A DNA stretch of 64,000 nt from Eubacteriales bacterium (GCA_041653135.1 JBAZGB010000003.1:421-64420), one strand, 5' to 3'; positions 369-50,570 are shown, counted from the first letter of the stretch. Made by a program: numbers and translations. The notes: a model not told the origin generated them from the sequence alone.

Positions 369-1586
369 TTACAGGCCCATGTTTTGGGCTACCCGTAGCA
401 GGTCAAAAATATCGACCTCCTCATCATTATTTACATCTGCTTTATTCGCTTCTGGATTGGTATTCGGATCCAGACCCATCCTGGCTGCCGCCCACAATAT
501 ATCAAAAATGTCTATTACGCCGTCGTCATCCATATCACCAAGGCGCAGAATCACGTCCGGGAGTTCGACAACTTCACCGTCGCCTATTGTTACCGGCCGG
601 ATTTCTTCCTTCCAGCTTCCGTCAGGCCGATCGAAAGATACATTGTAGCTGTCTGCAGACGGAGGACATACACTGTAACTGCCGTTAGAAAGTGAAACCG
701 CGCTGGCCATAATATTGTTGCCTTTCTTTACATTAACTACGGTTCCAGCGTGATCAGGTTCGGGGTCGTCAGCATAAACTTTCTCCAAAAAAACGTTTCC
801 TTTGATTATTGGGCCGCTGATTCCCATTTCTATCAAGATATCATTAAGTATTTCCTGTTCTTCATCCGTCAGTTGAATAAAGGCATTATGAAACAACTGA
901 CAGTCAAAACCAATATCTATCAAATCCTGTTCGGTAATATTGCTTACGTTTATAATATACTGTTCAACCAGGGCGTCAAATTGCGGGCACGAAATATTTC
1001 CGGCCTGGTCAATTTTAATTGTATTCAGCAGTTGCAAAAAGAACTCAATTCGCTCACATTCCCCCCAGTTCCAGGTTGAGTTCATCTCCAACCGAAAGCT
1101 TAAGGGAAGGGAATTCCGTAATGTTTCATATAACTCGGCCAGATAGGTAATATCGCGGTTTGATGGGGAAACGGCTTTGACAAACCCTTCATACCCGCCG
1201 ACGCCATCGCTCTGGTGAGTATTTACATAAATTTCAAATACCTGTGACTGAAGCAGCCCGGAATAGCTAAGACCAAACTTCGCTTCCAGCACAGTCTGCT
1301 GCTGCACGGTTAAAACAGGCTGGTTGCCGTTTATCCCTAAAAAAAGCGCCTGGTTTAAATCCTTCGATATATTTACAAGTGATTCAACTTCCTGGGCATT
1401 TAAAACAGCCAGTTTATCCCATAGAGGTGTTAAAGCCTGCACGCAGTCAATACTGTTCATCTCACTTTCTTCAGCCCGGACCGGCGGCGCACAAATAAAC
1501 AAAACGGAAATAATAAAGGCAAAAGCAAGCAGAGCCAATTTAAACCTCTGGAGAATGTCCTTCACTCTAGTACTCACTCCTTTCAT
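369..1586 (-). CDS. Secreted protein: unknown helical N-domain, carboxypeptidase-regulatory-like beta domain, C-terminal dockerin
   Basis: Signal peptide. Duplicated Ca-loop motif GDMDDDGVIDIFDIL...ADVNNDEEVDIFDLL at the C-terminus. Confidence 0.8.
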   Translation of the reverse strand: MKGVSTRVKDILQRFKLALLAFAFIISVLFICAPPVRAEESEMNSIDCVQALTPLWDKLAVLNAQEVESLVNISKDLNQALFLGINGNQPVLTVQQQTVLEAKFGLSYSGLLQSQVFEIYVNTHQSDGVGGYEGFVKAVSPSNRDITYLAELYETLRNSLPLSFRLEMNSTWNWGECERIEFFLQLLNTIKIDQAGNISCPQFDALVEQYIINVSNITEQDLIDIGFDCQLFHNAFIQLTDEEQEILNDILIEMGISGPIIKGNVFLEKVYADDPEPDHAGTVVNVKKGNNIMASAVSLSNGSYSVCPPSADSYNVSFDRPDGSWKEEIRPVTIGDGEVVELPDVILRLGDMDDDGVIDIFDILWAAARMGLDPNTNPEANKADVNNDEEVDIFDLLRVAQNMGL

Positions 1587-1653
1587 TAACCACTAAGCCT
1601 TAAGATTTCTTGTTTGAAGAAATTATTCACTTCTTAGTCTGTTCGAAACTCAT

Positions 1654-2523
1654 TTACAAGCCCATGTTTTGAGCTACCCGGAGCAGGTCAAAAATATCTA
1701 CATCCTCGTCCTTAATTATGTTCGCATACATCGCTTCCGGATCGGTATCCGGATCCAGCCCCATTCTGGCCGCTATCCACAGGAGATCAAAAATATCAAT
1801 TTCGCCGTCGTTATTCACATCGCCAAGGCGCAGAGTCACGTCCGGCAGTATGACATCACCACTTACTACGGTTACCGGCCTTTTTTCCTCCTTCCAGCTC
1901 GCGTCATCCCGGTCAAAGCATACATCGTAGCTGCCTGCGGACGGAGGAGATACACTGTAACTGCCGTCAGCAAGAGTAACCGTGCTGGCCACAATATTTT
2001 CACTTCCGCCTGTTTTTACATTAACTGCGACCCCGGCGAGACTAGGGTCGGGATCTGAAGACTGAGCCTTCTCCAACAAGACCTTCCCTTTGATTGCAGT
2101 CGGCGGCGGGATTTTAAGATCAACTTGTTCTACATCACCACTGTACCATTTAATAGTCACCGGAGTGCCGTAGTAATAAGTCTGTGCTGAGTAGAGGCAG
2201 CCGTTAACCTCAACCTTAAAAGTAACCGTTTTTCCCGCATCCGCGCTGTAACCGGTCACAGCAAGTTTTTTATGATCGTGGTCACCATAATAACCCCCGG
2301 TGAAATCAAATTCGGGGCTGCGCAGAGCGCCGTCAATATACGCCGTGACTATTCCCTCTTCTACCGTCTGCCCTTCAGTAGTCCATACACTGCCATAATA
2401 CTGGGCGGGCATTAGGGGAAGCGGATCATCGGCCGCGGCCGGGCCGGCCAAAGCTAAAAGGCAAAGAGCGGCGCTGATCAAGACCAGAATCCACTTTTGG
2501 AAAACTTTTGTTTGTCGGTTCAT
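1654..2523 (-). CDS. Secreted dockerin-domain protein
   Basis: AAGGAGGG RBS; signal peptide. GDVNNDGEIDIFDLL...ANIIKDEDVDIFDLL dockerin. C-terminal ~148 aa paralogous to 369..1586. Confidence 0.82.
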   Translation of the reverse strand: MNRQTKVFQKWILVLISAALCLLALAGPAAADDPLPLMPAQYYGSVWTTEGQTVEEGIVTAYIDGALRSPEFDFTGGYYGDHDHKKLAVTGYSADAGKTVTFKVEVNGCLYSAQTYYYGTPVTIKWYSGDVEQVDLKIPPPTAIKGKVLLEKAQSSDPDPSLAGVAVNVKTGGSENIVASTVTLADGSYSVSPPSAGSYDVCFDRDDASWKEEKRPVTVVSGDVILPDVTLRLGDVNNDGEIDIFDLLWIAARMGLDPDTDPEAMYANIIKDEDVDIFDLLRVAQNMGL

Positions 2524-2609
2524 TTCGAAGCCCTCCTTAAAATATTTTAAAGACCAGCCCTTTGCAACAACCCCCTGGATTTAAAAAACTATCCTTAGTT
2601 AAATAAAGA

Positions 2610-3917
2610 TCAAGGAACCGAAATTGCTTCCAGCAAACGTGCGATCATGGCCGCTATCTCTGCGCGGGTTACTTCTTTTTGCGGCCCGTAGGCGCCATCC
2701 GGGTAACCCTTTACAATACCTTTTTCGGCTACGATATTTACCGCCTCGCTTGCCCAAGCCGGGATTTGTTTCTGGTCGGCAAAACTTGCCTGGGGAGGTT
2801 TCTGGTCGCCAAGTTTTTGAACCAGCACCCGGCTTATAATCGCCGCCAGTTCAGCTCTGGTAAGCTGCTTTGCCGGTTGAAAAGTACTTTCCCCACCTGT
2901 TCCGATATACCCTTTCAGCAAACCTTCGTAAACAACCGCCGCGACAGAACCTTTAGCCCACTCCGGAACATCCGCCGCATCACTGAATATGGCCAGCTTC
3001 GCGTTGTTTCTGGCATCTATGCACGGGCTGCATCCTTCCATGCCGGGATCAACGGTTTCCAGTTCCAGCGCCCGGGCAATGATGGCGGAAAATTCTGCCC
3101 GGTTGATCATCTTATTCGGGCGGAAGGTTTTATCCTCATAGCCGCTGATTATCCCCTGCCCTACCAGTTTTTCAATAACCCCTGCAGCCCAGTGGCCCTG
3201 CAAATCGGTAAACTCAACAGCCTGTGCGATGGGGGCGGAAGAATCCTGGTATTTAAAAACAGCTTCCTCACTGTACAGGTTGTTTTGACATGCAACAGCT
3301 TTTACGGTGGTAGTTGTTTTAATCGTGAATTTTTCCTTGTATTCCTGTCGTGTGCCGCTCTGTTTCGGATCTGACCCGTCGGTGGTGTAATAAATAATTG
3401 CCCCCCCGGTAGGAGAAGACAAACTTATCTCCAGACTTCCGGTAAAACTCCCGGGCTCCGGCGCAGCCTCGGGCTTTTTGGGCGCCTGCTGTATGCCGCC
3501 GGTTCCACCGCCCGTCCCGCCGCCGCTAGTCGCTTGCGCCGGCACGTCGGCAGAAAGATTTACACTAAGATAGACACCCTGTTCATATTTGACTTCCGCA
3601 GGGTCAGACTGCGCAGGATATTCCGTTCCTCCAGCGGCTACTTTAAAAATAACCGTCTGGCCGAACACGCTCTGTTCACCTTCGAAACATGCGCTGAAGA
3701 CGCCTTTTTCTATGGTATCCTGAGCATACAACTTTCCTCCGATATAAACATTTACCACGCCTGTTTGGACCAATTCGCCGGTATTGTTCTTTACCGTTCC
3801 TTCGTAACAGCTCGGCACTACCGGCAAATCGGCGGCCAGAACCAACCCGCCCAGGCTCAAAGCGAAAACAAAGGTCAATAAAACTGCATATAAACGCTTC
3901 ATTTTAAATTGTCTCAC
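2610..3917 (-). CDS. SLH-domain surface protein with Fn3-like/CHB_HEX_C-type domain
   Basis: Signal peptide; G/T linker; IYYTTDGSDP motif; three SLH repeats (FTDLQGHWA, GYEDKTFRPNKMINRAEF, GYPDGAYGPQKEVTRAE). Confidence 0.88.
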   Translation of the reverse strand: MRQFKMKRLYAVLLTFVFALSLGGLVLAADLPVVPSCYEGTVKNNTGELVQTGVVNVYIGGKLYAQDTIEKGVFSACFEGEQSVFGQTVIFKVAAGGTEYPAQSDPAEVKYEQGVYLSVNLSADVPAQATSGGGTGGGTGGIQQAPKKPEAAPEPGSFTGSLEISLSSPTGGAIIYYTTDGSDPKQSGTRQEYKEKFTIKTTTTVKAVACQNNLYSEEAVFKYQDSSAPIAQAVEFTDLQGHWAAGVIEKLVGQGIISGYEDKTFRPNKMINRAEFSAIIARALELETVDPGMEGCSPCIDARNNAKLAIFSDAADVPEWAKGSVAAVVYEGLLKGYIGTGGESTFQPAKQLTRAELAAIISRVLVQKLGDQKPPQASFADQKQIPAWASEAVNIVAEKGIVKGYPDGAYGPQKEVTRAEIAAMIARLLEAISVP

Positions 3918-3973
3918 CCAGTCTGCCCTCCTTGAAATATTTAGGTAGAGTTTAAAAATGCTAAAATTATACT

Positions 3974-4996
3974 TTAAGACTCCGTCAGCGCTTTCCAGAA
4001 CCTTTCCAGTGTCACTGCCGCCTCAGCCCGCGTAACTTCTTTGAGCGGCTGGAAGGTACCGTCCGGGTAGCCTTTCAGGATACCCTTCTGGACAATTAAA
4101 TTTACCGCCTCCCCAGCCCAATCCGGGATCTGCTTCTGATCGCTGAAGCTTGCCGGAGCAACCGCCGGTGGTTGCTGGGCGCCGACCACCTGATTAAGCG
4201 CCCGGACTAAAATTGCCGCCAGCTCCGCTCTATTCAATGGCTTGTGCGGCCGGAAATAAACTTTTCCGTTCTCTTCCGGATAGCCCTTTAATATACCCGC
4301 GTATACAGACGCGGCGACAGAGCTTTGCGCCCAGGCGGGTATGTCTGCTGCGTCACTGATATTTTCCAGCACTTCCGGTTCTCCGGCGCCTAAAACCAGA
4401 ATACGCGCCATCATGGCAGAAAACTCTACGCGGGTAAGGAGGTTTTCCGGCCGGAAAGAATGATTCTCGTAACCCTTGAATAATCCCTGATCAATCGCCT
4501 GCTGGGCAGTGTCTTTTGCCCAATGCCCCTTTAAATCATCAAAGGCTGCCGGCAATGTGTCCTCAGTTACAACCGTCAGGTCTACCTGCTGCTTTGACTT
4601 GCTCTCCCAAATTACTTTAGCAAGACTCGTACGCGCAAGATACTCCCGCCCGTTAACCAAAACCTCGAATTTTACTTCTTTGCCGCTCAGGTCATCTTTA
4701 CTGTAAACAAGCAGCCGGCTTGTATAGGGGTCCCATGCCGGCACTCCATAGCACCCGTTGAAAAAAGGCAGTTTGCCGCAAAGTTTCCCATCAACAAAGG
4801 CTTTCACCTCGCCGGAAGCAACAGCTTGTCCCGCTTCGGTTTTAACCGTTCCGTAGTACAGGGCGGGAAAAGCCACCGGGGGCTGCGTGGAGGAATCCTG
4901 CTGGGCATATGCATTACCCTGTAAAAATAACAATGTTCCTAAAAAGAAAATGAACATCCAAAACTTTTGACCCAGGTTCTTATATTTTTTCTGCAT
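3974..4996 (-). CDS. SLH-domain surface protein
   Basis: Likely start ATG at 4996 (MQKKYK); signal peptide; three SLH repeats (FDDLKGHWA, GYENHSFRPENLLTRVEF, GYPDGTFQPLKEVTRAE). Confidence 0.88.
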   Translation of the reverse strand: MQKKYKNLGQKFWMFIFFLGTLLFLQGNAYAQQDSSTQPPVAFPALYYGTVKTEAGQAVASGEVKAFVDGKLCGKLPFFNGCYGVPAWDPYTSRLLVYSKDDLSGKEVKFEVLVNGREYLARTSLAKVIWESKSKQQVDLTVVTEDTLPAAFDDLKGHWAKDTAQQAIDQGLFKGYENHSFRPENLLTRVEFSAMMARILVLGAGEPEVLENISDAADIPAWAQSSVAASVYAGILKGYPEENGKVYFRPHKPLNRAELAAILVRALNQVVGAQQPPAVAPASFSDQKQIPDWAGEAVNLIVQKGILKGYPDGTFQPLKEVTRAEAAVTLERFWKALTES

Positions 4997-5066
4997 CAAT
5001 CTTTCGCCTTTAAATATTGCTTTCAAAAAATATATTTCCCTTCAGCTTCTTTATTCAAGAAAATAA

Positions 5067-5105
5067 AGCTTATCTGGTGCGGCGGGTCCGCCGCACCAGA
5101 CAGCT
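5067..5105 (-). terminator. Intrinsic terminator after the 955-aa gene
   Basis: Perfect inverted repeat tctggtgcggcgg/ccgccgcaccaga followed by TTTATTTT on the minus strand. Confidence 0.8.
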
Positions 5106-5177
5106 GTCTATCAATTATCATCCTGCATTATCTGCAAGATAACAAATCAGACGTGCAAATAATACTACTGTGGTGTT

Positions 5178-8045
5178 TTATGGGTTTTGAGTCTCTTCTT
5201 CGTACAGCAAGTCATCAAACATTGACTGGCCAACTTCGGCAGCCAGCGTCTGAGTCTTGGTCATGTATACCCAGTAGCCGTCGCCGTTGAACACCAGGTA
5301 CAGCGGGTCGAGCGCCCAGGCTTCAAGCGTACCCTGGGAAACATCGGCCGCCGTAAACCCGGCCAGGTTGGCCATCCTGTTGGGATCGCCGTCGATATTT
5401 ACGTCCTTTATTCCTGTGTTCGGATCGAGATCAACGACGATATCCAGTCCGTGGCCGCCCGGGTTATAGGTCTTCTTGCAGGCTTCGCAGGTGGTTCCGA
5501 GCATCTTGCCCAAGAACTCAGGCTGGTAAAGCTTGTCGCAAGGATAGCCTTCACAATTCGGACTGTCGCAATCCGGTACTTTGCAATTGCCGATAATATC
5601 AATCTCTATCGCCGGCGGCAAGGTCATCTCGCTCGGCATGGCTACTCCGACCAGGTTCCAGCCCTGCACCACAGTTCTGGTGGGCGGGATATCTTCACCG
5701 GGGTTGGCAACCCGGTTGAAGACGTATTTTGCCACATAGCAGTTCGGAGCTCCTTGTGTTGCTCTTTGCTTCGTCTTTACGTAGTAGGCGTAAAGCGGAT
5801 CAAGTTCCTCATCGGGGGCAAGGCTATCCCACTGATAGTCTTTATAGGTTAGAATATCGGCAAAGCTGCTCGCCGGCATCAGGGAATCCATGCCGCCGCT
5901 GCCCACCAGTTCCTGCGGAGTGGAAAGGACCTGCCAGGTCTCCGCATTCAGCACACGCTTTAAATCTACAGGATCGGCAAAGGGGCCAACTGCAACTGTG
6001 TTGGTTAGAATGACTTTTCCGGTTGTCTTGCCGACCAGCTTCGCCTGCACATAGACTACACTGCAAACACAGCTTGCGGAAGGATAGACATAGAAGTGTG
6101 ACTTCACGGTGCAGTATGGGTGAGTGTACTTATCCCAGCCATGGCACACTTTGCAAAGCAGCTCGCTGTGGTCTTCATTATAAATGTCGCCGCGGCCATC
6201 ATAGGCGCCTTTAAAGTTGAAGGTAGTATCAAGCGCCGTATCCCAGGTTGCGCAGCTGGGCGGGCAGAATTCCTTGGGGCTGGTCCCGGCCCAATTTGTA
6301 TCGTCTCCATCATCCGATCCACGCAGAGAAACAATAACGTCATAATTCTCAGTGGCATGGATATCGTTTCCTGCATCATCCTTTAGCCAGATTGCCGCAG
6401 ACAGCGGCCAACCGGCAACGGGGGCATTCTCGACAGAACCGAGTTCAATATCCTTGACCACTTTTACGGTAATATCCAACTGGGCCTGCGTTGCCTCATT
6501 GACAAATGCCTTGCATCTGGCAACAGACCTGTTAAGGTTGATTATGGAACGGCCTTCGATTGTCATTTCACCCAGTTTTTTCGGGTAGAATGTTACGCAA
6601 ATCCCCGTTTGGCCTTGCGGAATCCAAATGTGGGTGATTTCGTTGCCAGCAGCGTCTTTAAAGATACCGGTAACATTTTTGTTCGTATCGTAAGCGATAA
6701 GGTCAACCTTTAAACCGCCTGCATCCCTTACCGTTGTCAGGTTGCCGAACTTATCATAGACATCGATGCAGAAGTTGTAAGGTTTGTCAAGGGGAATCGG
6801 GCTCTCTTTCGGACAAGACCTCGGTCCGATGCAACTGGGCACACCAGGAGAAAGCGTGATGGTCCGGGGAATCGCTTCCAGCCAGGCGTGGGGCATTGTT
6901 TCAATGCACCCTGGAACGACAAAAGGACTATATAAAATGTGTGTCCCGCCAGAACTGGTTGCCCCGGCAAAGTCCTCTAAGGCCTCGGCAGCCATAAGCT
7001 GGCAATCCACAGTAAAGGGCGCAATATACTCAATCTCAGGATCTGCATTGCAGTCCTGTACTTCGATTGTACGCGCCCGGATGGTATAATCCAGGCCGTA
7101 ATCCTCACAGGCCGGCAGCTTTAGCTGGGCTGTGAAGATGGTTCTGTCTCCCAACTGCCTCGTATGCGCGACCACGGGGCAGATCGGCACGCCTGTGCAC
7201 GGTTTATAGTTCGCGGAACAATTTTCAATTATAGTTTCCCCATCTTCTATTACGAATGATCCTGGTCCACCGGCGTAAGGATCCTGCGCCGTCAGGCCTT
7301 TTTTATCCACGAGGTCAATAAGTACCGGCCAGGTGTCAAACGGCCAGGGTTTGTTGCAGGTACCCCAAACCTCTCCGCTGACCTCGATTGTAGAGCCTTT
7401 AGTGTAAGGAGCAGCGGGTAAATCAAGCGTTATTCTCTCTACAGTGCGCACTACTCTCAGCGCCATGCAGGATGAGACGCCACCGGTAAAGCACGGATGG
7501 CGCAGCGTGATGCAATAGCTTCCATCCAGGCAGGTGTTCTTCACCCTTAAGCCCTCGATTTGGAAATAATTGACTGTACCTATTTGCGGCAGGTTTTGTT
7601 TTTGAATAACAAAGGTAGCCGTGTGACTTACATTATCAATCACCGGAATTGTCTGAAGAATAGTACCAGTCATAGGATCTGAGCCACTGGTCCAGACCCG
7701 TATAGCAACAGTTCTCCCAATAGCCGGAGAAAGATCAAACTGTGTAGCATTCGGGTCGGAGATTTCCGGGAAATCAACCACTATCGGCTGATCTGCAAAT
7801 ACTCCCAGGTCAATATCGCCAAATAAGCCGGAATAGATCCCGTAATCATATGTGTGACTGCCCTTGACGACGTTCATATTCATGCCTGTATACGGGTTTA
7901 GTTGAGGATTCCCGTCAGGACCCAAAGCAATAATCCCTGTGTAATCAACCGGCGCCGCCAGTGATACTCCGGCAAACATAAAGCAACACAGAGCAACTAC
8001 AGCTAAAACAATGCTAAGTTTGCCCCATTTAGATATATGTGACAT
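5178..8045 (-). CDS. Large secreted Cys-rich surface (S-layer-like) protein with one CxxCH motif
   Basis: AAGGAGGG RBS; signal peptide; ~31 Cys in the mature chain by manual count; CKVCH at 6141-6155; two C-terminal W/GWNL...YYV/YWV repeats; own terminator and long leader. Function is an inference. Confidence 0.65.
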   Translation of the reverse strand: MSHISKWGKLSIVLAVVALCCFMFAGVSLAAPVDYTGIIALGPDGNPQLNPYTGMNMNVVKGSHTYDYGIYSGLFGDIDLGVFADQPIVVDFPEISDPNATQFDLSPAIGRTVAIRVWTSGSDPMTGTILQTIPVIDNVSHTATFVIQKQNLPQIGTVNYFQIEGLRVKNTCLDGSYCITLRHPCFTGGVSSCMALRVVRTVERITLDLPAAPYTKGSTIEVSGEVWGTCNKPWPFDTWPVLIDLVDKKGLTAQDPYAGGPGSFVIEDGETIIENCSANYKPCTGVPICPVVAHTRQLGDRTIFTAQLKLPACEDYGLDYTIRARTIEVQDCNADPEIEYIAPFTVDCQLMAAEALEDFAGATSSGGTHILYSPFVVPGCIETMPHAWLEAIPRTITLSPGVPSCIGPRSCPKESPIPLDKPYNFCIDVYDKFGNLTTVRDAGGLKVDLIAYDTNKNVTGIFKDAAGNEITHIWIPQGQTGICVTFYPKKLGEMTIEGRSIINLNRSVARCKAFVNEATQAQLDITVKVVKDIELGSVENAPVAGWPLSAAIWLKDDAGNDIHATENYDVIVSLRGSDDGDDTNWAGTSPKEFCPPSCATWDTALDTTFNFKGAYDGRGDIYNEDHSELLCKVCHGWDKYTHPYCTVKSHFYVYPSASCVCSVVYVQAKLVGKTTGKVILTNTVAVGPFADPVDLKRVLNAETWQVLSTPQELVGSGGMDSLMPASSFADILTYKDYQWDSLAPDEELDPLYAYYVKTKQRATQGAPNCYVAKYVFNRVANPGEDIPPTRTVVQGWNLVGVAMPSEMTLPPAIEIDIIGNCKVPDCDSPNCEGYPCDKLYQPEFLGKMLGTTCEACKKTYNPGGHGLDIVVDLDPNTGIKDVNIDGDPNRMANLAGFTAADVSQGTLEAWALDPLYLVFNGDGYWVYMTKTQTLAAEVGQSMFDDLLYEEETQNP

Positions 8046-8477: not shown

Positions 8478-8506
8478 TGTCCTGAAATAATTTTTACAGT
8501 GCTATT

Positions 8507-8538
8507 ATCAACAGATCCTCTACACGGAGGAAATTAAT
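8507..8538 (-). promoter_or_regulatory. Candidate bacterial SECIS element
   Basis: After the UGA at 8543-8545: lower stem AUUAAU/GUUGAU, upper stem UCCUC/GAGGA starting after an 11-nt spacer, apical loop CGUGUA. No U-tract follows. Confidence 0.5.
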
Positions 8539-8542
8539 GACT

Positions 8543-9256
8543 TCACCCGCCGCAATGAGTAGTTTTTCCGGCGCTGTCTTCCATCGGCGCCTTAATGGCC
8601 CTGTCCGCCAGCTTTGTACCGCGCCAGCCGACATCAAACCCACCTGTCATGTTTTTGACAGGCAGTCCCTGCGCTCCCAAAACACCGGCGACCAGGCCGG
8701 AGGAACTGCCGTCAGCGCAATAAACAACAATTTCATTCAGGCCTCCCCGGGCCGCGTGTTCGGCCAACAAACGCTTCAGCTCGGCAATGTTTTGTTTTTC
8801 AGCCATGTTTTCCGCCGGGGCAATCCAGACGGCGCCCGGAACATGGGCGGGATCGTAAACAGCTTTATTCCTTACGTCAACAACCAGGGGGTCGTTACCA
8901 ATCTGATCGCCGGTATTATGGCCGGTCCTGTAATCGGCCAGGGAATTGTCGTTGTCGTCATCAAGAATCTTTTTGAGTCCGGCAGGACTGATCAGGTTGT
9001 CCGCCTTGCCCAGATAAAGCTCGCCCCGCTGGTCATCAATAGTTACCGTCCCGTTTTTTTCGTCCCAGGCCACATGTGCGCCAAGCTGCTCGCTGACAAA
9101 ACGGATCGGAACATATATTCGGCCGCTTTTTAGGATGACTGAAACCCCTTCTCCGGCCTCAACTCCGCTAATTAACAGCCTGATTGCCTGCCCTGCCTGT
9201 GCCCATCCACAACCAAGCAAAAATATACAAATCAGCAGAACCGCTATCTTTTTCAA
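8543..9256 (-). CDS. Secreted copper-amine-oxidase-N-terminal (stalk) domain plus rhodanese protein; candidate C-terminal CxxU selenoprotein (would extend to 8534)
   Basis: YVPIRFVSEQLGAHVAWD stalk motif; LVVDVR...HVPGA and VVYCADGSSS rhodanese motifs; ends H-C-G-G-TGA-S-H-TAA. Confidence 0.8.
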   Translation of the reverse strand: MKKIAVLLICIFLLGCGWAQAGQAIRLLISGVEAGEGVSVILKSGRIYVPIRFVSEQLGAHVAWDEKNGTVTIDDQRGELYLGKADNLISPAGLKKILDDDNDNSLADYRTGHNTGDQIGNDPLVVDVRNKAVYDPAHVPGAVWIAPAENMAEKQNIAELKRLLAEHAARGGLNEIVVYCADGSSSGLVAGVLGAQGLPVKNMTGGFDVGWRGTKLADRAIKAPMEDSAGKTTHCGG

Positions 9257-9460
9257 TAAGATGTTATCACCCTTTTTGCTTTATTTCTGCCAATGAAAAT
9301 TCATCTGCGAAGCACTTTGAGAAACTTTCCACCTTTACCATCGATCTGCCAACTTATATTTGTTAGACACCGGCAGCAGGGAAAATGTTCCGGTTTTTCA
9401 AAAATAATTTTAGTTTTTGCTTTTAACAGTTCTGCTTCTAGTTTATTCAGCTCATTTTTT

Positions 9461-9922
9461 TTATATGGTGTCGCCGCTCACATTTTGATTTTTTTTGATG
9501 GATGGTCTTTGCGCTATTGAATCTATACACAAAAAAACCAGGGTAAGGAAGAAAAAGCCGGAAGAAGTCAGGCAAAAGACACAGAAACTTTTTAATATCT
9601 GCGACTGATAAATAATCAGGGCGGAGCAAATGAATACGCTCCAGAGGGCTAAAAGAAAGGCCAGGACCCGGCACCACTTGCTTTGCCGGGCAAAGAAGCA
9701 GAAAACAACCAGCAAGGCGGCGGCGCCCGCGCCGGCAACGGCAAAAGAAACCCTTCTTGCGATAAACAAAACCGGTTCACTGCAGCTTCTTGTGTAACAG
9801 AACAACTGTGACAAAGGCGTGAGAAAACCGTTGAAATACAGATATATTAAAAGAACGGCGTTTATAAAAGAAAGCAGCGCAGCCCACCTGGTCAAGGAAA
9901 GCAAAAACCTTTTTTCTGTAAT
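9461..9922 (-). CDS. Vitamin K epoxide reductase (VKOR) family membrane protein
   Basis: Four hydrophobic segments; loop pair C-YTRS-C (9782-9799); YQ..I...F-CVFC in the last TM (9572-9583). Start is either TTG 9904 or in-frame ATT 9922, 7 nt after AAGGAGGG. Confidence 0.72.
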   Translation of the reverse strand: MTEKRFLLSLTRWAALLSFINAVLLIYLYFNGFLTPLSQLFCYTRSCSEPVLFIARRVSFAVAGAGAAALLVVFCFFARQSKWCRVLAFLLALWSVFICSALIIYQSQILKSFCVFCLTSSGFFFLTLVFLCIDSIAQRPSIKKNQNVSGDTI

Positions 9923-9961
9923 CCCGAGTCCCTCCTTAAAATAATTTAAGCGTAGGCGTTT

Positions 9962-10453
9962 TTACTTTTTCAGAGAAACGCAGACCGGACAATAACCATT
10001 ATCGACTATGACTGTCGACCTTGGCTTATCCCAAACCACTTTGCCGCCCAAAGACTCCGCAGTCGCTTTCAGGGGCACGTAAAGCCTCCCCCTGACGATT
10101 TTTGCGCGAACAGCCAAATTAATCCGCTTACCGTTTTTAAATGCTGTTGCGCTGCCGGGGGTGAATTGAACGCTGTCTTGCTTTCTTGTTACAGTTGCGG
10201 TTCTGGCAGCGGTGTTCCATTTTACTGCAGCCCCCAGATTTTCTGCGATCGCTCTGCAGGAAACCAAAGTATGTCCATTCTCGACCAACATATCGGCGCT
10301 GTTAATACTTTCCCCATTAACCAGCACACGAATCTGGCCGGCTATCCCGGGAGTCAGAAAGAAAATGCCTTGGAAAGAAACCAGGACTACCGTCAATACC
10401 AGGAATACCTTTAATTGATCTAAAAACTTTTGCCTGTTGAAAGCGTCACTCAT
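9962..10453 (-). CDS. Secreted copper-amine-oxidase-N-terminal (stalk) domain protein with C-terminal CPVC
   Basis: Signal/anchor helix; two stalk repeats (AIAENLGAAVKWN, YVPLKATAESLGGKVVWD); YCPVC at 9980-9991. Confidence 0.8.
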   Translation of the reverse strand: MSDAFNRQKFLDQLKVFLVLTVVLVSFQGIFFLTPGIAGQIRVLVNGESINSADMLVENGHTLVSCRAIAENLGAAVKWNTAARTATVTRKQDSVQFTPGSATAFKNGKRINLAVRAKIVRGRLYVPLKATAESLGGKVVWDKPRSTVIVDNGYCPVCVSLKK

Positions 10454-47170: not shown

Positions 47171-49099
47171 TTATAAACCGTTGGCTGTTGTTTTTGGCTT
47201 GATCAAAAAACGCTTATCACCCACTCTTTTGGTCACCTTGATCCTGTCAAAGTATTCCAGCAAGGGCAGCGCGTATTTCCTGGAAATATTAAAAAGAGTT
47301 TTAATTTCTCCGATCGAAATTTCATTATTTTTTTCCAAATACCCGGTCAAGAGTTTTTTTGCATCTTCAATGGCAGCAGCGTGAAAATAAAGTCCTTCCG
47401 CCACTTTGACCAGCGTCCCCTGCCGCAAAAAAAGCTGCAGGACTTCCTGAGACTGTAATTCGCCAATACCTTCCCCAGCGGAAACGCTTTCCCAATCCGG
47501 CGGTTGAAAGCCGTTTTTATAAAAGATATCTTCTACTTTCTTGATAATCTCCTGCTGGCCGTCTTCAAGTTTAGGCTGAAAACCTTTTAATGCTATTGTG
47601 TTCGAACCCGGACTTAAAATATTTTCTGCTCCCATTATCTTAAGCAGCGACTGAAGCTGTCTTGTGTTAAATTGGGGAAAAAGCCTGGAACGCAGTTCCT
47701 CACGGGGGAAACCTTCCCTTAAAGGATACTGGTGATGGTATTTCTTCAGAAGTTCGGTTAATTTTTCAACCCATTGCTTGTAAATCTCCCGGGAAATAAA
47801 AAAATGGTCATGATCCGCTGTCAGGACATACACTTTATTTTCCCCGCTCAGTTCTTCAAGCGCCCGGTCAGTTTCTTCCTCTTTAATCCCGGTTGACCGG
47901 GATATATCCGATTTGCTCCTGATTGTTTTCTGGCTTTTTAAATAGCTTTCCACCTGTTCAGCAGGGAGGCCAAGTTCACGAGTAACCAATGCTTCAATTA
48001 TTTCTTCCCGCATTCGTTTATGTTTCCTGGATGCCGAATCGACTACGACACCTCCTCCCAGAGTATGAACAGGAGAATATGACCGGAACACGAAACGGTC
48101 CCCTTTTATAGCCGCAACCGGTTCCTCAAGCAGAAATTGCGCATAAGCGGTTTCTCCGGGTAAAAGTTTATCCCTGTCCAACAGGATAACCCTGCCGAGA
48201 ATTTCAGCCGTACCAAGATAAAAACGAAGACGGGTCCGGTTTTCCAACTCCTTTTGCACATTTGCAAGCAAAGAAATCCGGGCATCCAGACGGTTGGCAG
48301 ACCTTAAAAACCCCGGCTTTGCCAAAACGCTTCCCCTTTGAGCCTGTTCCACACCTACACCGGCAATATTTACAGCCACCCTCTGCCCGGCCATGGCTTC
48401 TTTTACTTTTTCTCCGTGAACCTGCAGGGAACGCACCCTGGCAACCAATCCCTGAGGCATAATCTCCAGGTTGTCTCCGGTATGAATAACTCCGCTCCAG
48501 AGCGTGCCCGTCACCACTGTGCCAAATCCCGTTACGGAAAACGCCCTGTCTATAGGCAGCCGGGCCTGCCCTGCATTATCTTTTCCTTCCACCGGAACTT
48601 CGTCGATTTTTTTCAGCAGCTCTTCCAGTCCCTGACCTGTAACCGCAGACACCTCCACAACAGGGGATTCTTTTAAAGGGGTGTCTTTCAGGAAATCATT
48701 AACATCTTCCCGGACCAATTTTAAAAATTCTTCGTCAACCAGGTCAACTTTCGTCAAAGCAACTATTCCCCGGTTGATCTGCAATAAACGGACAATATCC
48801 ATGTGCTCCCGTGTTTGGGGCATAACTCCCTCATCTGCGGCTATAACCAGTAAAACAAGATCAATTCCGGCTACCCCGGCCAACATGTTTTTAATAAACC
48901 GCTCGTGACCGGGAACATCGACAATGCCTGCCCGGCGTCCGCTGGGAAGCCGGCAAAAAGCGAATCCCAGCTCGATGGAGATCCCTCTTTCCTTCTCCAT
49001 CTTTAACCTGTCAGTGTCAATCCCCGTCAGAGCTTTAATCAGAGCTGTTTTCCCGTGATCTACATGGCCTGCCGTACCAATGATAATATTGGTCATCAC
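47171..49099 (-). CDS. selB: Selenocysteine-specific elongation factor
   Basis: GTAGHVDHGKT, DVPGHERF, TKVD; winged-helix tail ending SRKYALPLLEYFD..KVTKRVGDKR. Confidence 0.97.
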   Translation of the reverse strand: MMTNIIIGTAGHVDHGKTALIKALTGIDTDRLKMEKERGISIELGFAFCRLPSGRRAGIVDVPGHERFIKNMLAGVAGIDLVLLVIAADEGVMPQTREHMDIVRLLQINRGIVALTKVDLVDEEFLKLVREDVNDFLKDTPLKESPVVEVSAVTGQGLEELLKKIDEVPVEGKDNAGQARLPIDRAFSVTGFGTVVTGTLWSGVIHTGDNLEIMPQGLVARVRSLQVHGEKVKEAMAGQRVAVNIAGVGVEQAQRGSVLAKPGFLRSANRLDARISLLANVQKELENRTRLRFYLGTAEILGRVILLDRDKLLPGETAYAQFLLEEPVAAIKGDRFVFRSYSPVHTLGGGVVVDSASRKHKRMREEIIEALVTRELGLPAEQVESYLKSQKTIRSKSDISRSTGIKEEETDRALEELSGENKVYVLTADHDHFFISREIYKQWVEKLTELLKKYHHQYPLREGFPREELRSRLFPQFNTRQLQSLLKIMGAENILSPGSNTIALKGFQPKLEDGQQEIIKKVEDIFYKNGFQPPDWESVSAGEGIGELQSQEVLQLFLRQGTLVKVAEGLYFHAAAIEDAKKLLTGYLEKNNEISIGEIKTLFNISRKYALPLLEYFDRIKVTKRVGDKRFLIKPKTTANGL

Positions 49100-49100
49100 T

Positions 49101-50570
49101 TCACCCCTGGAATAATTCCTTTTTCTCCTCTTTTAACAAAACACCTGACAATGCATCCAGGATCATTTTTTCTTCTCCGTTTTGGATGGTTCTTAAATCT
49201 AAAAGAAAGAGGTCTTCCCGTACCCTGCCCAAAACAGCGGGTTCATGATATCTTAAAAGCTGGCTGAACCGTTCCATGCTCAGTTTAAATGGTTTAACAG
49301 CCACCGCAAAGGAAGGCAGTTCCGCCGTCGGCATAGCCCCGCCTCCTACCCGGGAAACAGAGCTTCTGACAGTTATTTCCGCTTCTCTCTGTACAGCTTC
49401 TCTCAAGCTGCAAGCCATATCTTCCGCCCTCAACCGGATATCTTCCAAATCCCCAGTAATCATCCGCAACGTTGGAATATCTTCTAGGGCCTGCTCCGGA
49501 TTCAGGTATGACCTTAAGGTGGCTTCCAGCGCCGCCAGAGTTAGTTTGTCTATCCTCAACGCACGGGCCAGGGGGTTTTTATGCATTTCCTCAATAATTT
49601 CCTTTTTGCCGGCAACAATCCCCGCCTGTGGACCGCCAAGCATTTTATCCCCGGAAAAGGTCACCACACTGATACCGGCGCCCAGCACCTGTTGGACGGT
49701 AGGCTCAGCCGGAAGATTGAAAAACCCGAGATCCGCCAGAACACCGCTGCCCAGATCGCTCATTACCGGCAGGTTAAACTCCCGTCCCAGCTTGACAAGT
49801 TCAGAAACACTTGCCTGTCTGGTAAAACCTATAATATGGTAATTGCTTGTATGGACATGCAAAATCAACGCCGTTCTCTCGGTAATCGCCGCCCGGTAAT
49901 CTTCAACATAGGTCTTGTTGGTTGTGCCCACCTCAACAAGGGTACAGCCGCTCTGTTTCATAATCTCGGGAATGCGGAAAGAACCGCCTATTTCTACGAG
50001 TTGGCCTCTTGATACAATTACTTCCTTTCCCCGGGCCAATGTGCTCAAAGCCAAAAGGACAGCCGCCGCGTTGTTATTTACGGCCAGAAAGGACTCAGCC
50101 CCGGTTAACCTGAAAAGAATGTCTTGAACGGCGGCGTGCCGTGAACCTCTCCTGCCCGTATCAAGATCAAATTCAAGATTGATGTAACTTGACGCAGCTA
50201 AAAAGACAGCCTGACAGGCGGCCGTGCTTAATAAAGAACGGCCAAGGTTTGTATGCAGGATAACTCCGGTTCCATTGATTACTTTTTTTACATTTGATCC
50301 TGCAATCCTTTTAACCGTTTCCGCAGTTTCCAGCACGACAAGACCTTTTAGCTGTTCCCTGGAAAAACTTCTTCCTGATCCCTCGTTATTTTTTAATTCG
50401 TCGCGAATGCGGTCCAATGCGCTGCGTATTATTTCAAGAACAATTTCACGAGGATAAAAACTTAATAGTTCACTGATTTGGGAAGACTGCAGAATTTCAT
50501 TTACAGCAGGCAACTTGTGCAAGATCTTTTCTCCGCCGTTTACATCCAAATTTGTTTTGCCCCCAATCAT
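49101..50570 (-). CDS. selA: L-seryl-tRNA(Sec) selenium transferase
   Basis: INGTGVILHTNLGR, NNNAAAV, SRGQLVEIGGSFR, FSGDKMLGGPQAG. Confidence 0.97.
   Translation of the reverse strand: MIGGKTNLDVNGGEKILHKLPAVNEILQSSQISELLSFYPREIVLEIIRSALDRIRDELKNNEGSGRSFSREQLKGLVVLETAETVKRIAGSNVKKVINGTGVILHTNLGRSLLSTAACQAVFLAASSYINLEFDLDTGRRGSRHAAVQDILFRLTGAESFLAVNNNAAAVLLALSTLARGKEVIVSRGQLVEIGGSFRIPEIMKQSGCTLVEVGTTNKTYVEDYRAAITERTALILHVHTSNYHIIGFTRQASVSELVKLGREFNLPVMSDLGSGVLADLGFFNLPAEPTVQQVLGAGISVVTFSGDKMLGGPQAGIVAGKKEIIEEMHKNPLARALRIDKLTLAALEATLRSYLNPEQALEDIPTLRMITGDLEDIRLRAEDMACSLREAVQREAEITVRSSVSRVGGGAMPTAELPSFAVAVKPFKLSMERFSQLLRYHEPAVLGRVREDLFLLDLRTIQNGEEKMILDALSGVLLKEEKKELFQG

What the first reader, a model, noticed from the sequence alone, without database searches (positions are those of the whole stretch)
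8534..10453. Extracytoplasmic thiol-redox cassette (CxxC protein, VKOR, rhodanese/CxxU) abutting the Cys-rich surface cluster
Seen: three co-oriented genes: a stalk-domain protein ending YCPVC, a four-TM protein with both VKOR cysteine pairs, and a stalk-domain rhodanese with active-site Cys and terminal CGG(U). They lie directly upstream of a surface cluster in which the fully visible products all contain Cys. Known: bacterial VKOR replaces DsbB, reoxidising a DsbA-like partner through quinone; menG is present in the window. No thioredoxin-fold partner is visible here. Inference: a possibly undescribed disulfide-formation or sulfur/selenium-transfer pathway, with wall-tethered short CxxC/CxxU tails as relays, dedicated to maturing the surface proteins of an anaerobe.
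Basis: partly seen in the sequence, partly recalled or inferred. Interest (0 to 1): 0.8.

Follow-up and report, generated by a model that had tools for sequence, protein, structure and literature searches.

The report
Unrecognised secreted selenoprotein rhodanese beside VKOR-like pair
The three genes are real, but the main result is that the rhodanese gene does not end at its TGA: that codon almost certainly encodes selenocysteine, which defines a secreted selenoprotein family missing from current catalogues, lying next to a separate, very rare VKOR-like membrane protein paired with a CxxC-tailed partner.

Summary
All three genes exist on the minus strand.

- **Gene C (8534..9256):** lipobox or signal peptide, partial stalk domain, rhodanese, and a tail reading ...HCGG-UGA-SH-TAA.
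  - All 20 distinct CxxU-type relatives end in TGA, against 17% TGA among the window's own stops.
  - Two or three sense codons follow, usually starting with Gly in all four synonymous codons, and then a true stop.
  - A hairpin comes next and meets the bacterial SECIS rules. Five of its six pairs covary.
  - selA and selB lie in the same window.
  - No NCBIfam selenoprotein model matches it, and the 119-family catalogue of 2026 does not list it. No Cys-for-Sec homologue was found.
- **Gene B (9461..9904):** a very rare four-helix protein with two invariant Cys pairs.
  - It resembles VKOR only remotely. Pfam scores are below threshold in 8 of 8 members.
  - The only PDB sequence hits, and the top five fold hits, are VKOR.
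- **Gene A (9962..10453):** a stalk protein with a C-terminal CxxC tail. It precedes B in every divergent B locus except one variant.

A+B is therefore a conserved pair. C is an independent, widespread gene. The three-gene cassette occurs only in the window and one close relative. The link to Cys-rich surface proteins is partial: 6 of 16 C loci carry the 955-aa family and 10 of 17 carry some Cys-rich exported neighbour. No function was tested.

The parts
8534..9256 (-). Gene C, true extent: exported (lipobox LLGC) partial-stalk-domain + rhodanese selenoprotein, 240 aa, ending ...T-H-C235-G-G-U238-S-H-stop (TAA 8534-8536).
   Evidence: ORF and sequence. Pfam Rhodanese E 7.2e-13 and Cu_amine_oxidN1 E 4.8e-11. 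72 homologues with the same architecture.
8543..8545 (-). In-frame UGA read as selenocysteine (U238). With Cys235 (8552-8554) it forms the C-x-x-U motif.
   Evidence: TGA in 20 of 20 distinct CxxU-type relatives. It is followed by 2-3 sense codons and a true stop. Tail-less relatives end in TAA or TAG. TGA makes up 7 of 41 stops in the window.
8516..8531 (-). SECIS-type hairpin in the 3' UTR: UCCUC-CGUGUA-GAGGA, beginning 2 nt after the TAA. The loop starts 16 nt after the UGA.
   Evidence: Family alignment A4: 91.7% of cells paired, 5 of 6 pairs with changes on both sides, 0 of 500 shuffles reach the score. Covariance model R1 hits the window only at 8504-8554, E 2.8e-9. Geometry checked against published bSECIS rules. 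Not flagged as a terminator.
8717..8719 (-). Codon of the rhodanese active-site cysteine, Cys180 (VVYC-ADGSSSG; family consensus VVYC-YTGNTSG).
   Evidence: Nearly invariant column in the 31-sequence alignment A1. It lies inside the Pfam Rhodanese match.
9461..9904 (-). Gene B: 147-aa four-helix membrane protein, remote VKOR-like. Cys36/Cys41 codons at 9797-9799 and 9782-9784. C108-V-F-C111 at 9572-9583. The real start may be ATT 9922, which follows a Shine-Dalgarno sequence at 9930-9937.
   Evidence: rare family, four invariant Cys. (8 of 8 members hit Pfam VKOR below threshold). (only PDB sequence hits are 3kp9 and 4nv6, with both Cys pairs in register). (AF2 pLDDT 78; top five fold hits are VKOR, E 0.06-0.55).
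9962..10453 (-). Gene A: membrane-anchored or secreted stalk-domain protein with a C-terminal Y-C155-P-V-C158 tail (9980-9991). It is the presumed redox partner of B.
   Evidence: Pfam Cu_amine_oxidN1 E 3.6e-28. A stalk protein ending CSVC, CPVC, CPWC or CPIC lies directly upstream of B in L041, L042, L079/L080 and L081, where B is 40-83% identical.
5178..8045 (-). 955-aa exported protein with 33 Cys and no Pfam domain. It is the first gene of an SLH, dockerin and cohesin-type surface cluster and a frequent, but not obligatory, downstream neighbour of gene C.
   Evidence: Homologues follow gene C in L001, L002, L003, L006 and L042. The family occurs without C in L086 and L091. No Cys in the mature region is invariant.
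47171..50570 (-). selB (47171..49099) and selA (49101..50570): the selenocysteine-insertion machinery of the same organism.
   Evidence: Pfam SelB-wing_2 and SelB-wing_3, Beta-barrel_SelB, GTP_EFTU; SelA E 7e-157.
50567..52083 (-). UbiE/MenG-type methyltransferase (50567..51292) and polyprenyl synthetase (51289..52083). These are menaquinone-pathway genes and give a possible quinone for gene B.
   Evidence: Pfam Ubie_methyltran E 4e-71 and polyprenyl_synt E 3e-12.

Best explanation
Two separable extracytoplasmic thiol/selenol modules lie side by side.

**Module 1, gene C.** C is an exported single-domain rhodanese of the GlpE/PspE type. Its mRNA is read through UGA 8543-8545 as selenocysteine. 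A small hairpin just past the true stop directs this, using the SelA and SelB encoded in the same window. The product ends C235-G-G-U238-S-H.

Proposed chemistry (inferred):
1. Cys180 takes a sulfane sulfur from thiosulfate or polysulfide and becomes a persulfide.
2. The selenolate on the roughly 25-residue C-terminal arm attacks that persulfide.
3. Cys235 resolves the adduct. Sulfide is released and the arm is left as a Cys-Sec selenenylsulfide.
4. The arm then passes its oxidising equivalent to a dithiol or is re-reduced.

The arm thus acts as a built-in acceptor, playing the part thioredoxin plays for cytoplasmic rhodaneses, and it resembles the C-terminal Cys-Sec arm of thioredoxin reductase.

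**Module 2, genes A+B.** B is a minimal VKOR-like membrane protein. Both of its Cys pairs face outward, and it would pass electrons from the CxxC tail of stalk protein A to menaquinone. A then serves as a wall-side oxidant that lacks a thioredoxin fold.

**Shown:** gene structures, conservation of the UGA, its in-frame extension and the hairpin, selA and selB, the A-B pairing, and remote VKOR similarity.
**Inferred:** every chemical step, the direction of electron flow, the substrates, and any cross-talk between the modules.
For: **Sec reading**
- TGA ends all 20 distinct CxxU-type sequences. TGA is 17% of stops in the window.
- An in-frame true stop follows after exactly 2-3 codons in all 20.
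- The first of those codons is Gly in 14 of 20, using GGG, GGT, GGA and GGC. It is Ser in the window (AGT) and in L042 (AGC).
- Hairpin: 5 of 6 pairs show compensatory change, 91.7% of cells pair against 52-67% in slid registers, and 0 of 500 shuffles reach the score.
- Loops are GGC, GUU, GUC or GGU, with 16-21 nt spacing and stems of 5-7 bp or more. These fit the published bSECIS rules.
- selA and selB lie in the window.
- Relatives without the tail end in TAA or TAG.

**Rhodanese and export**
- Pfam domains and the conserved Cys180 loop. Signal peptide or lipobox.
- A relative in L015 carries a tetrahaem domain (4 CxxCH) at the position of the tail. This suggests the C-terminal appendage is a redox module.

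**A+B**
- Four invariant Cys in B.
- VKOR is the only Pfam hit shared by all 8 members and the only PDB sequence hit, and it fills the top five fold hits.
- A CxxC-tailed stalk protein precedes B in 5 loci, down to 40% B identity.
- Menaquinone genes are present.

**Precedents**
- Periplasmic rhodanese PspE can replace DsbA (Chng 2012, as cited in PMC5403849).
- Clostridial VKORs complement dsbB (PMC12453122).
- A periplasmic Sec enzyme cleaves polysulfide (PMC13510729).
Against: - No selenium incorporation was measured.
- The window's own hairpin is the weakest of the family. It has 5 bp, a C.A mismatch at the top of the stem and -6.1 kcal/mol, against the -7.5 rule. Folding an 81-nt stretch around it gave z = -0.09.
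- No Cys-for-Sec homologue exists among 72 relatives. This is unusual for a selenoprotein.
- selC and selD were not seen in the window.
- B fails the Pfam VKOR threshold. Its loop pair is CX4C, or CX2C in one member, rather than the longer spacing of typical VKORs. Fold E-values are 0.06 or worse.
- No structure of C was predicted, so whether the arm can reach Cys180 is untested.
- Nothing identifies the reductant or oxidant that recycles the arm. Most C loci have no B.
Confidence: 0.68

Rival explanations
1. A, B and C form one dedicated pathway. Quinone or sulfane sulfur provides the oxidant, and the wall-tethered CxxC and CxxU tails relay it to form disulfides in the Cys-rich 955-aa protein and its surface cluster.
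For: - Adjacency of A-B-C-955aa in the window and in L042.
- A degenerate B-like remnant lies next to C in L004.
- The 955-aa family follows C in 6 loci whose upstream genes differ.
- Other C loci carry unrelated exported Cys-rich proteins: L004 with 13 Cys, L046 with 15, L048 with about 11, L020 with 17.
- Obligate anaerobes normally avoid Cys in exported proteins (PMC12453122).
- PspE gives a precedent (PMC5403849).
Against: - A+B and C are inherited independently.
- B is far too rare to serve most C genes.
- The 955-aa family occurs without C in L086 and L091.
- 10 of 16 C loci lack the 955-aa family.
- No Cys in the mature region is invariant across that family.
- The L015 fusion to a tetrahaem domain points to inorganic sulfur redox chemistry rather than protein folding.
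Confidence: 0.2
2. The TGA is an ordinary stop. The protein ends ...CGG, and the downstream hairpin is a terminator, an RNA-stability element or an accident of sequence.
For: - Every public annotation ends these proteins at the TGA.
- The window hairpin is short and weak.
- Rfam finds nothing there.
- No Cys homologue marks the position.
Against: - TGA is used in 20 of 20 distinct sequences against a 17% background.
- An in-frame second stop follows at codon +3 or +4 in all 20. The intervening Gly codon varies synonymously.
- The hairpin lacks a U tract in most members and is not called a terminator.
- It keeps a fixed 16-21 nt distance from the UGA, with a loop that begins with G.
- Stem covariation is strong.
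- selA and selB are present.
Confidence: 0.05
3. B is not a VKOR-type quinone-linked oxidoreductase. It is an unrelated small Cys-containing membrane protein, for example an anchor or chaperone for stalk protein A, or a metal- or haem-handling protein.
For: - All VKOR scores are below threshold. Pfam reaches 15 bits in the window copy and E 1.5e-4 at best. PDB sequence E is 0.31 and Foldseek E is 0.06 or worse.
- A profile search of 1.8 billion representatives found no canonical VKOR.
- The outer loop is much shorter than in known VKORs.
Against: - Three independent methods all point to VKOR and to nothing else.
- Both Cys pairs align in register with C50/C56 and C130/C133 of the Synechococcus enzyme.
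- The four Cys, and a Ser or Thr after the CxxC, are invariant.
- DsbB and other four-helix proteins do not appear among the leading fold hits.
- A conserved CxxC-bearing neighbour is what a thiol oxidase would need.
Confidence: 0.22

Closest known systems
Rhodanese-like selenoproteins, forms 1-5, in the 2026 catalogue of prokaryotic selenoproteins (PMC13188914, Table 1). Forms 1, 2 and 4 have UxxS or UxxG, form 3 is NF041203 (CxU), form 5 is TsoB (NF045694, UxxxxU).
   Same: A rhodanese domain combined with selenocysteine, and predicted redox or sulfur-transfer chemistry.
   Different: - Here the catalytic loop keeps Cys. Sec sits three residues from the C-terminus in a C-x-x-U tail.
- The protein is exported and carries a stalk (Cu_amine_oxidN1) segment.
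- NF041203 gives no hit. TsoB gives 13-17 bits against a cut-off of 805.
'UXX-star' and 'KCU-star' selenoproteins (NF041114, NF041211, NF033934, as listed in PMC13188914)
   Same: Sec lies two or three residues before the true stop, so the SECIS must sit at or beyond the end of the reading frame.
   Different: The protein families are unrelated, and none of these models matches.
E. coli PspE and GlpE, single-domain thiosulfate sulfurtransferases (PMC2593051). PspE is periplasmic and can substitute for DsbA (Chng 2012, cited in PMC5403849).
   Same: Single rhodanese domain, weak NCBIfam similarity to GlpE and PspE, and extracytoplasmic location as for PspE.
   Different: PspE and GlpE have one Cys, no Sec and no stalk segment, and they depend on external acceptors such as thioredoxin or DsbC. 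Here an acceptor arm appears to be built in.
Thioredoxin reductase C-terminal Gly-Cys-Sec-Gly arm (general knowledge, not tested here)
   Same: A flexible C-terminal Cys/Sec redox pair that shuttles between a buried active site and the substrate. Gly usually follows Sec.
   Different: The Cys and Sec are adjacent there rather than in a CxxU spacing. That enzyme has a flavoprotein core and is cytoplasmic and eukaryotic.
Bacterial VKOR (PF07884): Synechococcus VKOR-Trx (3kp9, 4nv5), M. tuberculosis VKOR, C. difficile VKOR (PMC12453122)
   Same: Four-helix bundle, a loop Cys pair plus a CxxC at the start of helix 4, and a positive-inside topology that puts both pairs outside. Menaquinone genes are present.
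   Different: - Only 147 aa, with a short loop and CX4C spacing.
- Below the Pfam threshold, and an extremely rare family.
- The neighbouring partner is a stalk-domain protein with a bare C-terminal CxxC, not a thioredoxin or DsbA fold.
MccSep, the periplasmic multihaem selenoprotein polysulfide reductase of Geobacter (PMC13510729)
   Same: An extracytoplasmic Sec residue proposed to attack S-S bonds of inorganic sulfur. A relative of gene C is fused to a tetrahaem domain (L015).
   Different: No sequence relationship. The catalytic centre there is a haem, not a rhodanese.

Membership tests
Bacterial selenoprotein gene (Sec-UGA plus bSECIS) | In-frame UGA conserved among homologues, with the coding signal continuing beyond it | tested here: met
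   TGA in 20 of 20 distinct CxxU-type sequences. Two or three sense codons follow and then a true stop. The first of these codons is Gly in 14 of 20, using four synonymous codons.
Bacterial selenoprotein gene (Sec-UGA plus bSECIS) | [quoted passage not shown] 2) | tested here: met
   Most members of the family meet all four rules, and covariation is strong. The window copy meets three of the four. Its loop is CGUGUA, its spacing 16 nt and its stem 5 bp, but its MFE is -6.1.
Bacterial selenoprotein gene (Sec-UGA plus bSECIS) | Sec machinery in the genome (selA, selB, selC, selD) | tested here: met
   selA and selB are at 47171..50570. selC and selD are not in the window, and the rest of the genome was not available.
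Bacterial selenoprotein gene (Sec-UGA plus bSECIS) | Cys-containing homologues aligning with the UGA (usual, not obligatory) | tested here: not met
   None of 72 homologues has CxxC at the tail. The alternatives are tail-less '...VPY' forms or a tetrahaem fusion.
Bacterial selenoprotein gene (Sec-UGA plus bSECIS) | Selenium present in the protein | not testable with these tools
   Needs 75Se labelling or mass spectrometry.
Rhodanese (PF00581) | Domain match above the curated threshold, with the catalytic Cys in the active-site loop | tested here: met
   49.3 bits against a cut-off of 22.2. Cys180 is nearly invariant in A1. The nearest solved relative is 2eg3, E 7.7e-6.
Known rhodanese selenoprotein forms 1-5 | Sec in the catalytic loop (UxxS or UxxG), or a match to NF041203 or NF045694 | tested here: not met
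   The catalytic residue is Cys. There is no NF041203 hit even at E up to 10. NF045694 scores 13-17 bits against a cut-off of 805.
VKOR (PF07884) | Pfam score at or above the gathering threshold | tested here: not met
   15.2 bits against 27.5 for the window protein. All 8 family members hit VKOR but below threshold, with a best E of 1.5e-4.
VKOR (PF07884) | Four transmembrane helices with a loop Cys pair and a CxxC at the outer end of helix 4 | tested here: met
   The AF2 model (pLDDT 78) has helices 4-24, 54-71, 76-100 and 105-143. C36, C41, C108 and C111 are invariant and align with C50/C56 and C130/C133 of 3kp9. The spacing is CX4C, shorter than in typical VKORs.
VKOR (PF07884) | Fold match to solved VKOR structures | tested here: inconclusive
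   The top five PDB hits are VKOR or VKOR-like (6wvi, 6wv8, 6wvb, 6wv5, 6wv4), with TM-scores (query-normalised) of 0.45-0.62. E-values are 0.06-0.55, and none reaches 0.001.
VKOR (PF07884) | Thioredoxin-fold partner (DsbA-like or fused Trx) and quinone reduction | tested here: not met
   The conserved neighbour is a stalk-domain protein with a C-terminal CxxC. No Trx-fold gene appeared among the window ORFs scanned. Quinone reduction cannot be tested here.
DsbB | CxxC in the first outer loop, a second Cys pair in the second outer loop, and a DsbB Pfam match | tested here: not met
   The Cys pairs are in the opposite order, with the CxxC at helix 4. No DsbB appears among the Pfam hits or the 50 best fold hits.

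The most novel reading that the evidence does not exclude
Strict anaerobes of the Peptococcaceae group make disulfides, or otherwise oxidise thiols, outside the cell without oxygen and without any thioredoxin-fold catalyst. They would use two kinds of stalk-domain proteins that carry bare C-terminal redox tails. One has a CxxC tail recharged through a minimal VKOR and menaquinone. The other has a CxxU tail recharged by sulfane sulfur on its own rhodanese domain. Together these would allow the unusual Cys-rich surface proteins encoded next door.
Probability: 0.15. Interest if true: 0.85.

Novelty: new variant of a known kind. Interest (0 to 1): 0.72.

Why it matters
1. **A missing selenoprotein family.** It would add an exported selenoprotein family spread across many anaerobic Bacillota (Peptococcaceae, Dehalobacterium, Desulfocucumis, Syntrophomonadaceae, Ammonifex) to a catalogue that now holds 119 families. 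Public records truncate every member seen, including the RefSeq-type entries for Dehalobacterium.
2. **A blind spot in detection methods.** The family has no Cys homologue, and its SECIS lies entirely beyond the stop codon. The two standard detection strategies, Cys/Sec pairing and in-frame bSECIS search, tend to miss exactly this case.
3. **A new enzyme design.** A rhodanese with a built-in Cys/Sec acceptor arm has not been described. It is directly testable with a small soluble protein.
4. **A puzzle in oxidative folding.** A minimal VKOR-like protein whose conserved partner lacks a thioredoxin fold bears on how anaerobic Gram-positive bacteria, which normally avoid exported cysteines, handle the exceptions.

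Tried and rejected
- Folding 81 nt around the UGA on its own showed nothing special (z = -0.09). The signal appeared only on comparison across relatives.
- Rfam at gathering thresholds and ARAGORN found nothing in the window.
- The first AF2 run of B, with 4 sequences, was unusable (pLDDT 54). A rerun with 8 sequences gave 78.
- tblastn of B against 40 genome loci of C found no B. A B-like remnant in L004 was found only by eye.
- Two of my regular-expression scans failed on a wrong motif length and were redone. One script failed on a file name.
- A screen of the window for other genes joined by an in-frame TGA found none that was convincing.
- The second-best hit of the SECIS model, at 48792-48842, has its UGA out of frame inside selB. 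I rejected it.
- Stalk-domain proteins downstream of the 955-aa gene in L001 and L002 were checked for CxxC tails. They have none.
- The word-limited search for the 955-aa family returned only 6 proteins. Its alignment shows no conserved Cys in the mature region.
- Haft and Tolstoy 2025 (PMC12013261) is not held. Novelty therefore rests on the 2026 review table and on the NCBIfam release 20 models.
- I considered and rejected a C-terminal CaaX-like lipidation signal for 'C-x-x-stop'. There is no bacterial precedent, and it does not explain the TGA or the hairpin.
Full report
**1. What is at the site**

The region 8534-10453 holds three co-oriented genes on the minus strand.

- **Gene A (9962..10453, 163 aa).** It has an N-terminal hydrophobic anchor and a full Cu_amine_oxidN1 'stalk' domain (E 3.6e-28). 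It ends ...DNGYCPVCVSLKK.
- **Gene B (9461..9904, 147 aa).** It is a small hydrophobic protein. Its only recurring Pfam match is VKOR, below threshold at 15.2 bits against a cut-off of 27.5.
- **Gene C (to 9256).** It has a lipobox (LLGC), the first half of a stalk domain and a rhodanese domain (E 7.2e-13). Its 3' end reads TGC GGC GGG TGA AGT CAT TAA.

**2. Gene C is very probably a selenoprotein**

A search of 5.8 billion proteins gave 72 relatives with the same stalk-plus-rhodanese architecture. All come from anaerobic Bacillota or from MAGs. Most of the annotated proteins stop at ...C-G-G, C-K-T, C-x-G and similar endings.

I recovered the DNA of 40 genome loci and 34 metagenome loci. In the window and in all 19 other distinct sequences of this type:

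- The stop is TGA.
- Two or three sense codons follow.
- A true TAA, TAG or TGA stop comes next.
- A short hairpin follows 0-7 nt later.

TGA accounts for only 7 of 41 stops in the window's own long ORFs.

The first codon after the TGA is Gly in 14 of 20 sequences, written with all four Gly codons. It is Ser as AGT in the window and AGC in L042. That is the pattern of a translated codon.

Relatives that lack the tail end '...VPY..' with TAA or TAG.

The hairpin is (U)CCUCC-GKY-GGAGG(A), changing to CCCC/GGGG, ACCUCC/GGAGGU, GUCCCU/AGGGAC and others.

| Measure on the 20-sequence alignment | Value |
|---|---|
| Cells that form a standard pair | 91.7% |
| Same measure with the 3' arm slid by 1-3 columns | 52-67% |
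| Pairs with changes on both sides | 5 of 6 |
| Shuffles reaching the covariation score | 0 of 500 |

Its geometry fits the published bacterial SECIS rules (PMC13188914, read). The loop has 3 nt and begins G[G/U]. The stem has 5-7 bp or more. The loop starts 16-21 nt after the UGA. Most copies have an MFE of -7.5 kcal/mol or lower.

A covariance model built from the family hits the window once, at 8504-8554, with E 2.8e-9. The hairpin has no U tract and is not called a terminator.

The same window encodes SelB (47171..49099) and SelA (49101..50570).

The mature product is therefore read as 240 aa ending T-H-C235-G-G-U238-S-H.

Caveats:
- The window's own hairpin is the weakest in the family, with a C.A mismatch at the top and -6.1 kcal/mol.
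- No Cys-for-Sec homologue exists.
- selC and selD were not in the window.
- Nothing was measured.

**3. Is this selenoprotein known?**

The 2026 review lists 119 prokaryotic selenoprotein families, five of them rhodanese forms (UxxS, UxxG, CxU/NF041203, UxxG, and TsoB with UxxxxU). None is a stalk-domain protein or has a C-terminal CxxU.

NCBIfam release 20 contains the curated selenoprotein models. It gives only generic rhodanese similarity for four family members. There is no NF041203 hit, and TsoB scores 13-17 bits against a cut-off of 805.

No paper in the library pairs selenocysteine with this stalk domain.

The 'Sec, two or three residues, stop' layout does have precedents in unrelated families, the UXX-star and KCU-star selenoproteins.

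Because the family has no Cys homologue and its SECIS lies beyond the stop, Cys/Sec-pair searches would not find it. All public annotations seen truncate it.

**4. Gene B**

B belongs to a very rare family. It has four clusters among 5.8 billion sequences and six among 1.8 billion representatives searched with a profile.

In the 8-sequence alignment C36, C41, C108 and C111 are invariant, as are R73, S106 and S114.

Three lines of evidence point to VKOR and to nothing else:
- Every member hits Pfam VKOR weakly, with a best E of 1.5e-4, and no other family recurs.
- The only PDB sequences reached at E below 10 are the Synechococcus VKOR entries. Both Cys pairs align in register.
- With the deeper alignment the AF2 model reaches pLDDT 78. 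Its five best PDB matches are all VKOR or VKOR-like, with TM 0.45-0.62 and E 0.06-0.55. DsbB is absent from the list.

None of these is significant alone. I call B 'VKOR-like' and do not file it as a member.

By the positive-inside rule both Cys pairs face outward. A UbiE/MenG methyltransferase and a polyprenyl synthetase lie in the window.

**5. Which genes travel together**

| Locus | Arrangement |
|---|---|
| L042 (C 85% identical) | A-B-C-955aa, as in the window |
| L041 (B 83% identical) | FtsH-A(CSVC)-B-SLH protein, no C |
| L079/L080 and L081 (B 40% identical) | stalk protein ending ..NYCPWCI.. or ..THCPICI, then B |
| L082-L085 (most divergent B, loop CPVC) | B follows a multi-pass membrane protein and a secreted Cys-rich protein |
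| L001, L002, L003, L006 | two or three LuxR-type regulator-like genes, then C, then a homologue of the 955-aa protein; no A or B |
| L004 | a B-like remnant, broken by TAA and lacking the CxxC, just upstream of C |

A+B is therefore a conserved two-gene module, and C is an independent gene. The triple arrangement is specific to the window's close lineage.

**6. The link to the Cys-rich surface cluster**

The 955-aa protein has 33 Cys. It heads a cluster of an SLH protein, a CHB_HEX_C/Fn3_assoc-SLH protein, a 289-aa protein and a dockerin protein. The same order, with cohesin and Big_5/SLH genes added, appears in L086 and L089.

- Homologues follow C in 6 of 16 C loci that have enough downstream sequence.
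- The family occurs without C in L086, where a Crp-like gene lies upstream, and in L091, where a caspase-like gene lies upstream.
- Family members carry 18-33 Cys each, but no Cys in the mature region is invariant.
- Four other C loci have unrelated exported Cys-rich neighbours: L004, L046, L048 and L020.

In all, 10 of 17 loci carry some Cys-rich exported protein within about 2 kb. This is suggestive, because obligate anaerobes tend to exclude Cys from exported proteins (PMC12453122). It is not proof.

**7. How it most likely works**

*Shown.* C is exported. It keeps the rhodanese catalytic Cys. It ends in a conserved arm, ..AP-M-E-D-x-x-G-x-x-x-x-C-x-x-U.

*Inferred.*
1. Cys180 forms a persulfide from thiosulfate or polysulfide.
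2. The selenolate of U238 attacks that persulfide.
3. Cys235 resolves the adduct. Sulfide is released and a Cys-Sec selenenylsulfide is left on the arm.
4. The arm is then re-reduced, or it oxidises a dithiol.

This gives an extracytoplasmic rhodanese the acceptor that thioredoxin provides in the cytoplasm.

A natural fusion supports reading the C-terminal appendage as a redox module. In L015 a relative that lacks the Sec tail carries a tetrahaem (4 x CxxCH) domain at that position.

Precedents:
- PspE can replace DsbA.
- A periplasmic Sec enzyme cleaves polysulfide.

For A+B, the VKOR analogy predicts electron flow from A's CxxC through B's two Cys pairs to menaquinone. A would then be an oxidant without a thioredoxin fold.

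Whether the two modules talk to each other is unknown.

**8. Verdict**

The strongest and newest element is the selenoprotein reading of gene C, which I put at about 0.9. VKOR-like redox function of B with A as its partner is plausible, at about 0.6. A dedicated role in maturing the surface proteins is possible, at about 0.2.

I rate the finding a new variant of known kinds. It combines a new Sec position and architecture among rhodanese selenoproteins with a minimal VKOR-like protein whose partner lacks a thioredoxin fold.

Noticed in passing
window 47171..52083 (-): selB and selA sit directly downstream of a polyprenyl synthetase gene and a ubiE/menG-type methyltransferase gene on the same strand. 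Neighbouring reading frames overlap or nearly abut. No tRNA-Sec or selD is in the window.
   Followed up: partly
window 369..8045 (-); L086 1753-11551; L089 30-7646: The 955-aa Cys-rich protein heads a conserved surface cluster: an SLH protein, a CHB_HEX_C/Fn3_assoc+SLH protein, dockerin proteins, a cohesin protein and a Big_5+SLH protein. This is a cohesin-dockerin surface assembly in a non-cellulolytic-looking anaerobe.
   Followed up: partly
L015 7911-9170: A relative of the stalk-rhodanese that lacks the Sec tail is fused at its C-terminus to a domain with four CxxCH haem-binding motifs.
   Followed up: partly
L053 ~2215 and L022 ~1627: A second tail variant reads ...PS[TP]-UGA-xxxxSCG[TS]QE-stop. 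In L053 an 8-bp hairpin (UUCCUGUG-GGA-CACAGGAA) starts 12 nt after the UGA, inside the extended frame. This may be an independent Sec position in the same family.
   Followed up: no
L048 6860-6910: A degenerate second copy of the '...GGT TGA GGT AAA' tail plus hairpin lies about 110 nt after the real one (model E 0.0015). It looks like a remnant of a duplication.
   Followed up: partly
L004 7396-7700: A gene B-like reading frame lies directly upstream of the Sec-rhodanese. It is interrupted by TAA and lacks the CxxC, so it is apparently a decaying copy.
   Followed up: partly
window 9904..9937 (-): Gene B probably starts at ATT 9922, 7 nt after the Shine-Dalgarno sequence AAGGAGGG (9930-9937), rather than at TTG 9904. 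The extra K/R-rich N-terminus matches the N-termini of distant homologues P0077 and P0078. An automatic gene call of 102 aa (P0075) removes helix 1 and the first Cys pair.
   Followed up: partly
window ~8890..8960 (-), residues ~98-122 of gene C: A strongly conserved acidic motif, LDDDxDxxLADYRxGHxGGDxxxNDP, lies between the stalk segment and the rhodanese domain, with several invariant Asp. It resembles a calcium-binding loop. Not tested.
   Followed up: no
L001, L006, L009 (3' ends of gene C homologues): In several members the GGGAG that directly follows the UGA can pair with the CCUCC arm of the SECIS hairpin. This gives an alternative fold of similar energy. Its significance is unknown.
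   Followed up: no
L001 5618-7872, L002 5879-7903, L003 6415-7893, L006 2353-3683: Two or three tandem LuxR-type regulator-like genes lie directly upstream of the Sec-rhodanese in four loci. L004 and L048 instead have a LytTR-type response regulator and, in L048, a multi-pass membrane protein that looks AgrB-like. All of these calls are by eye from the sequences, with no domain scan.
   Followed up: no
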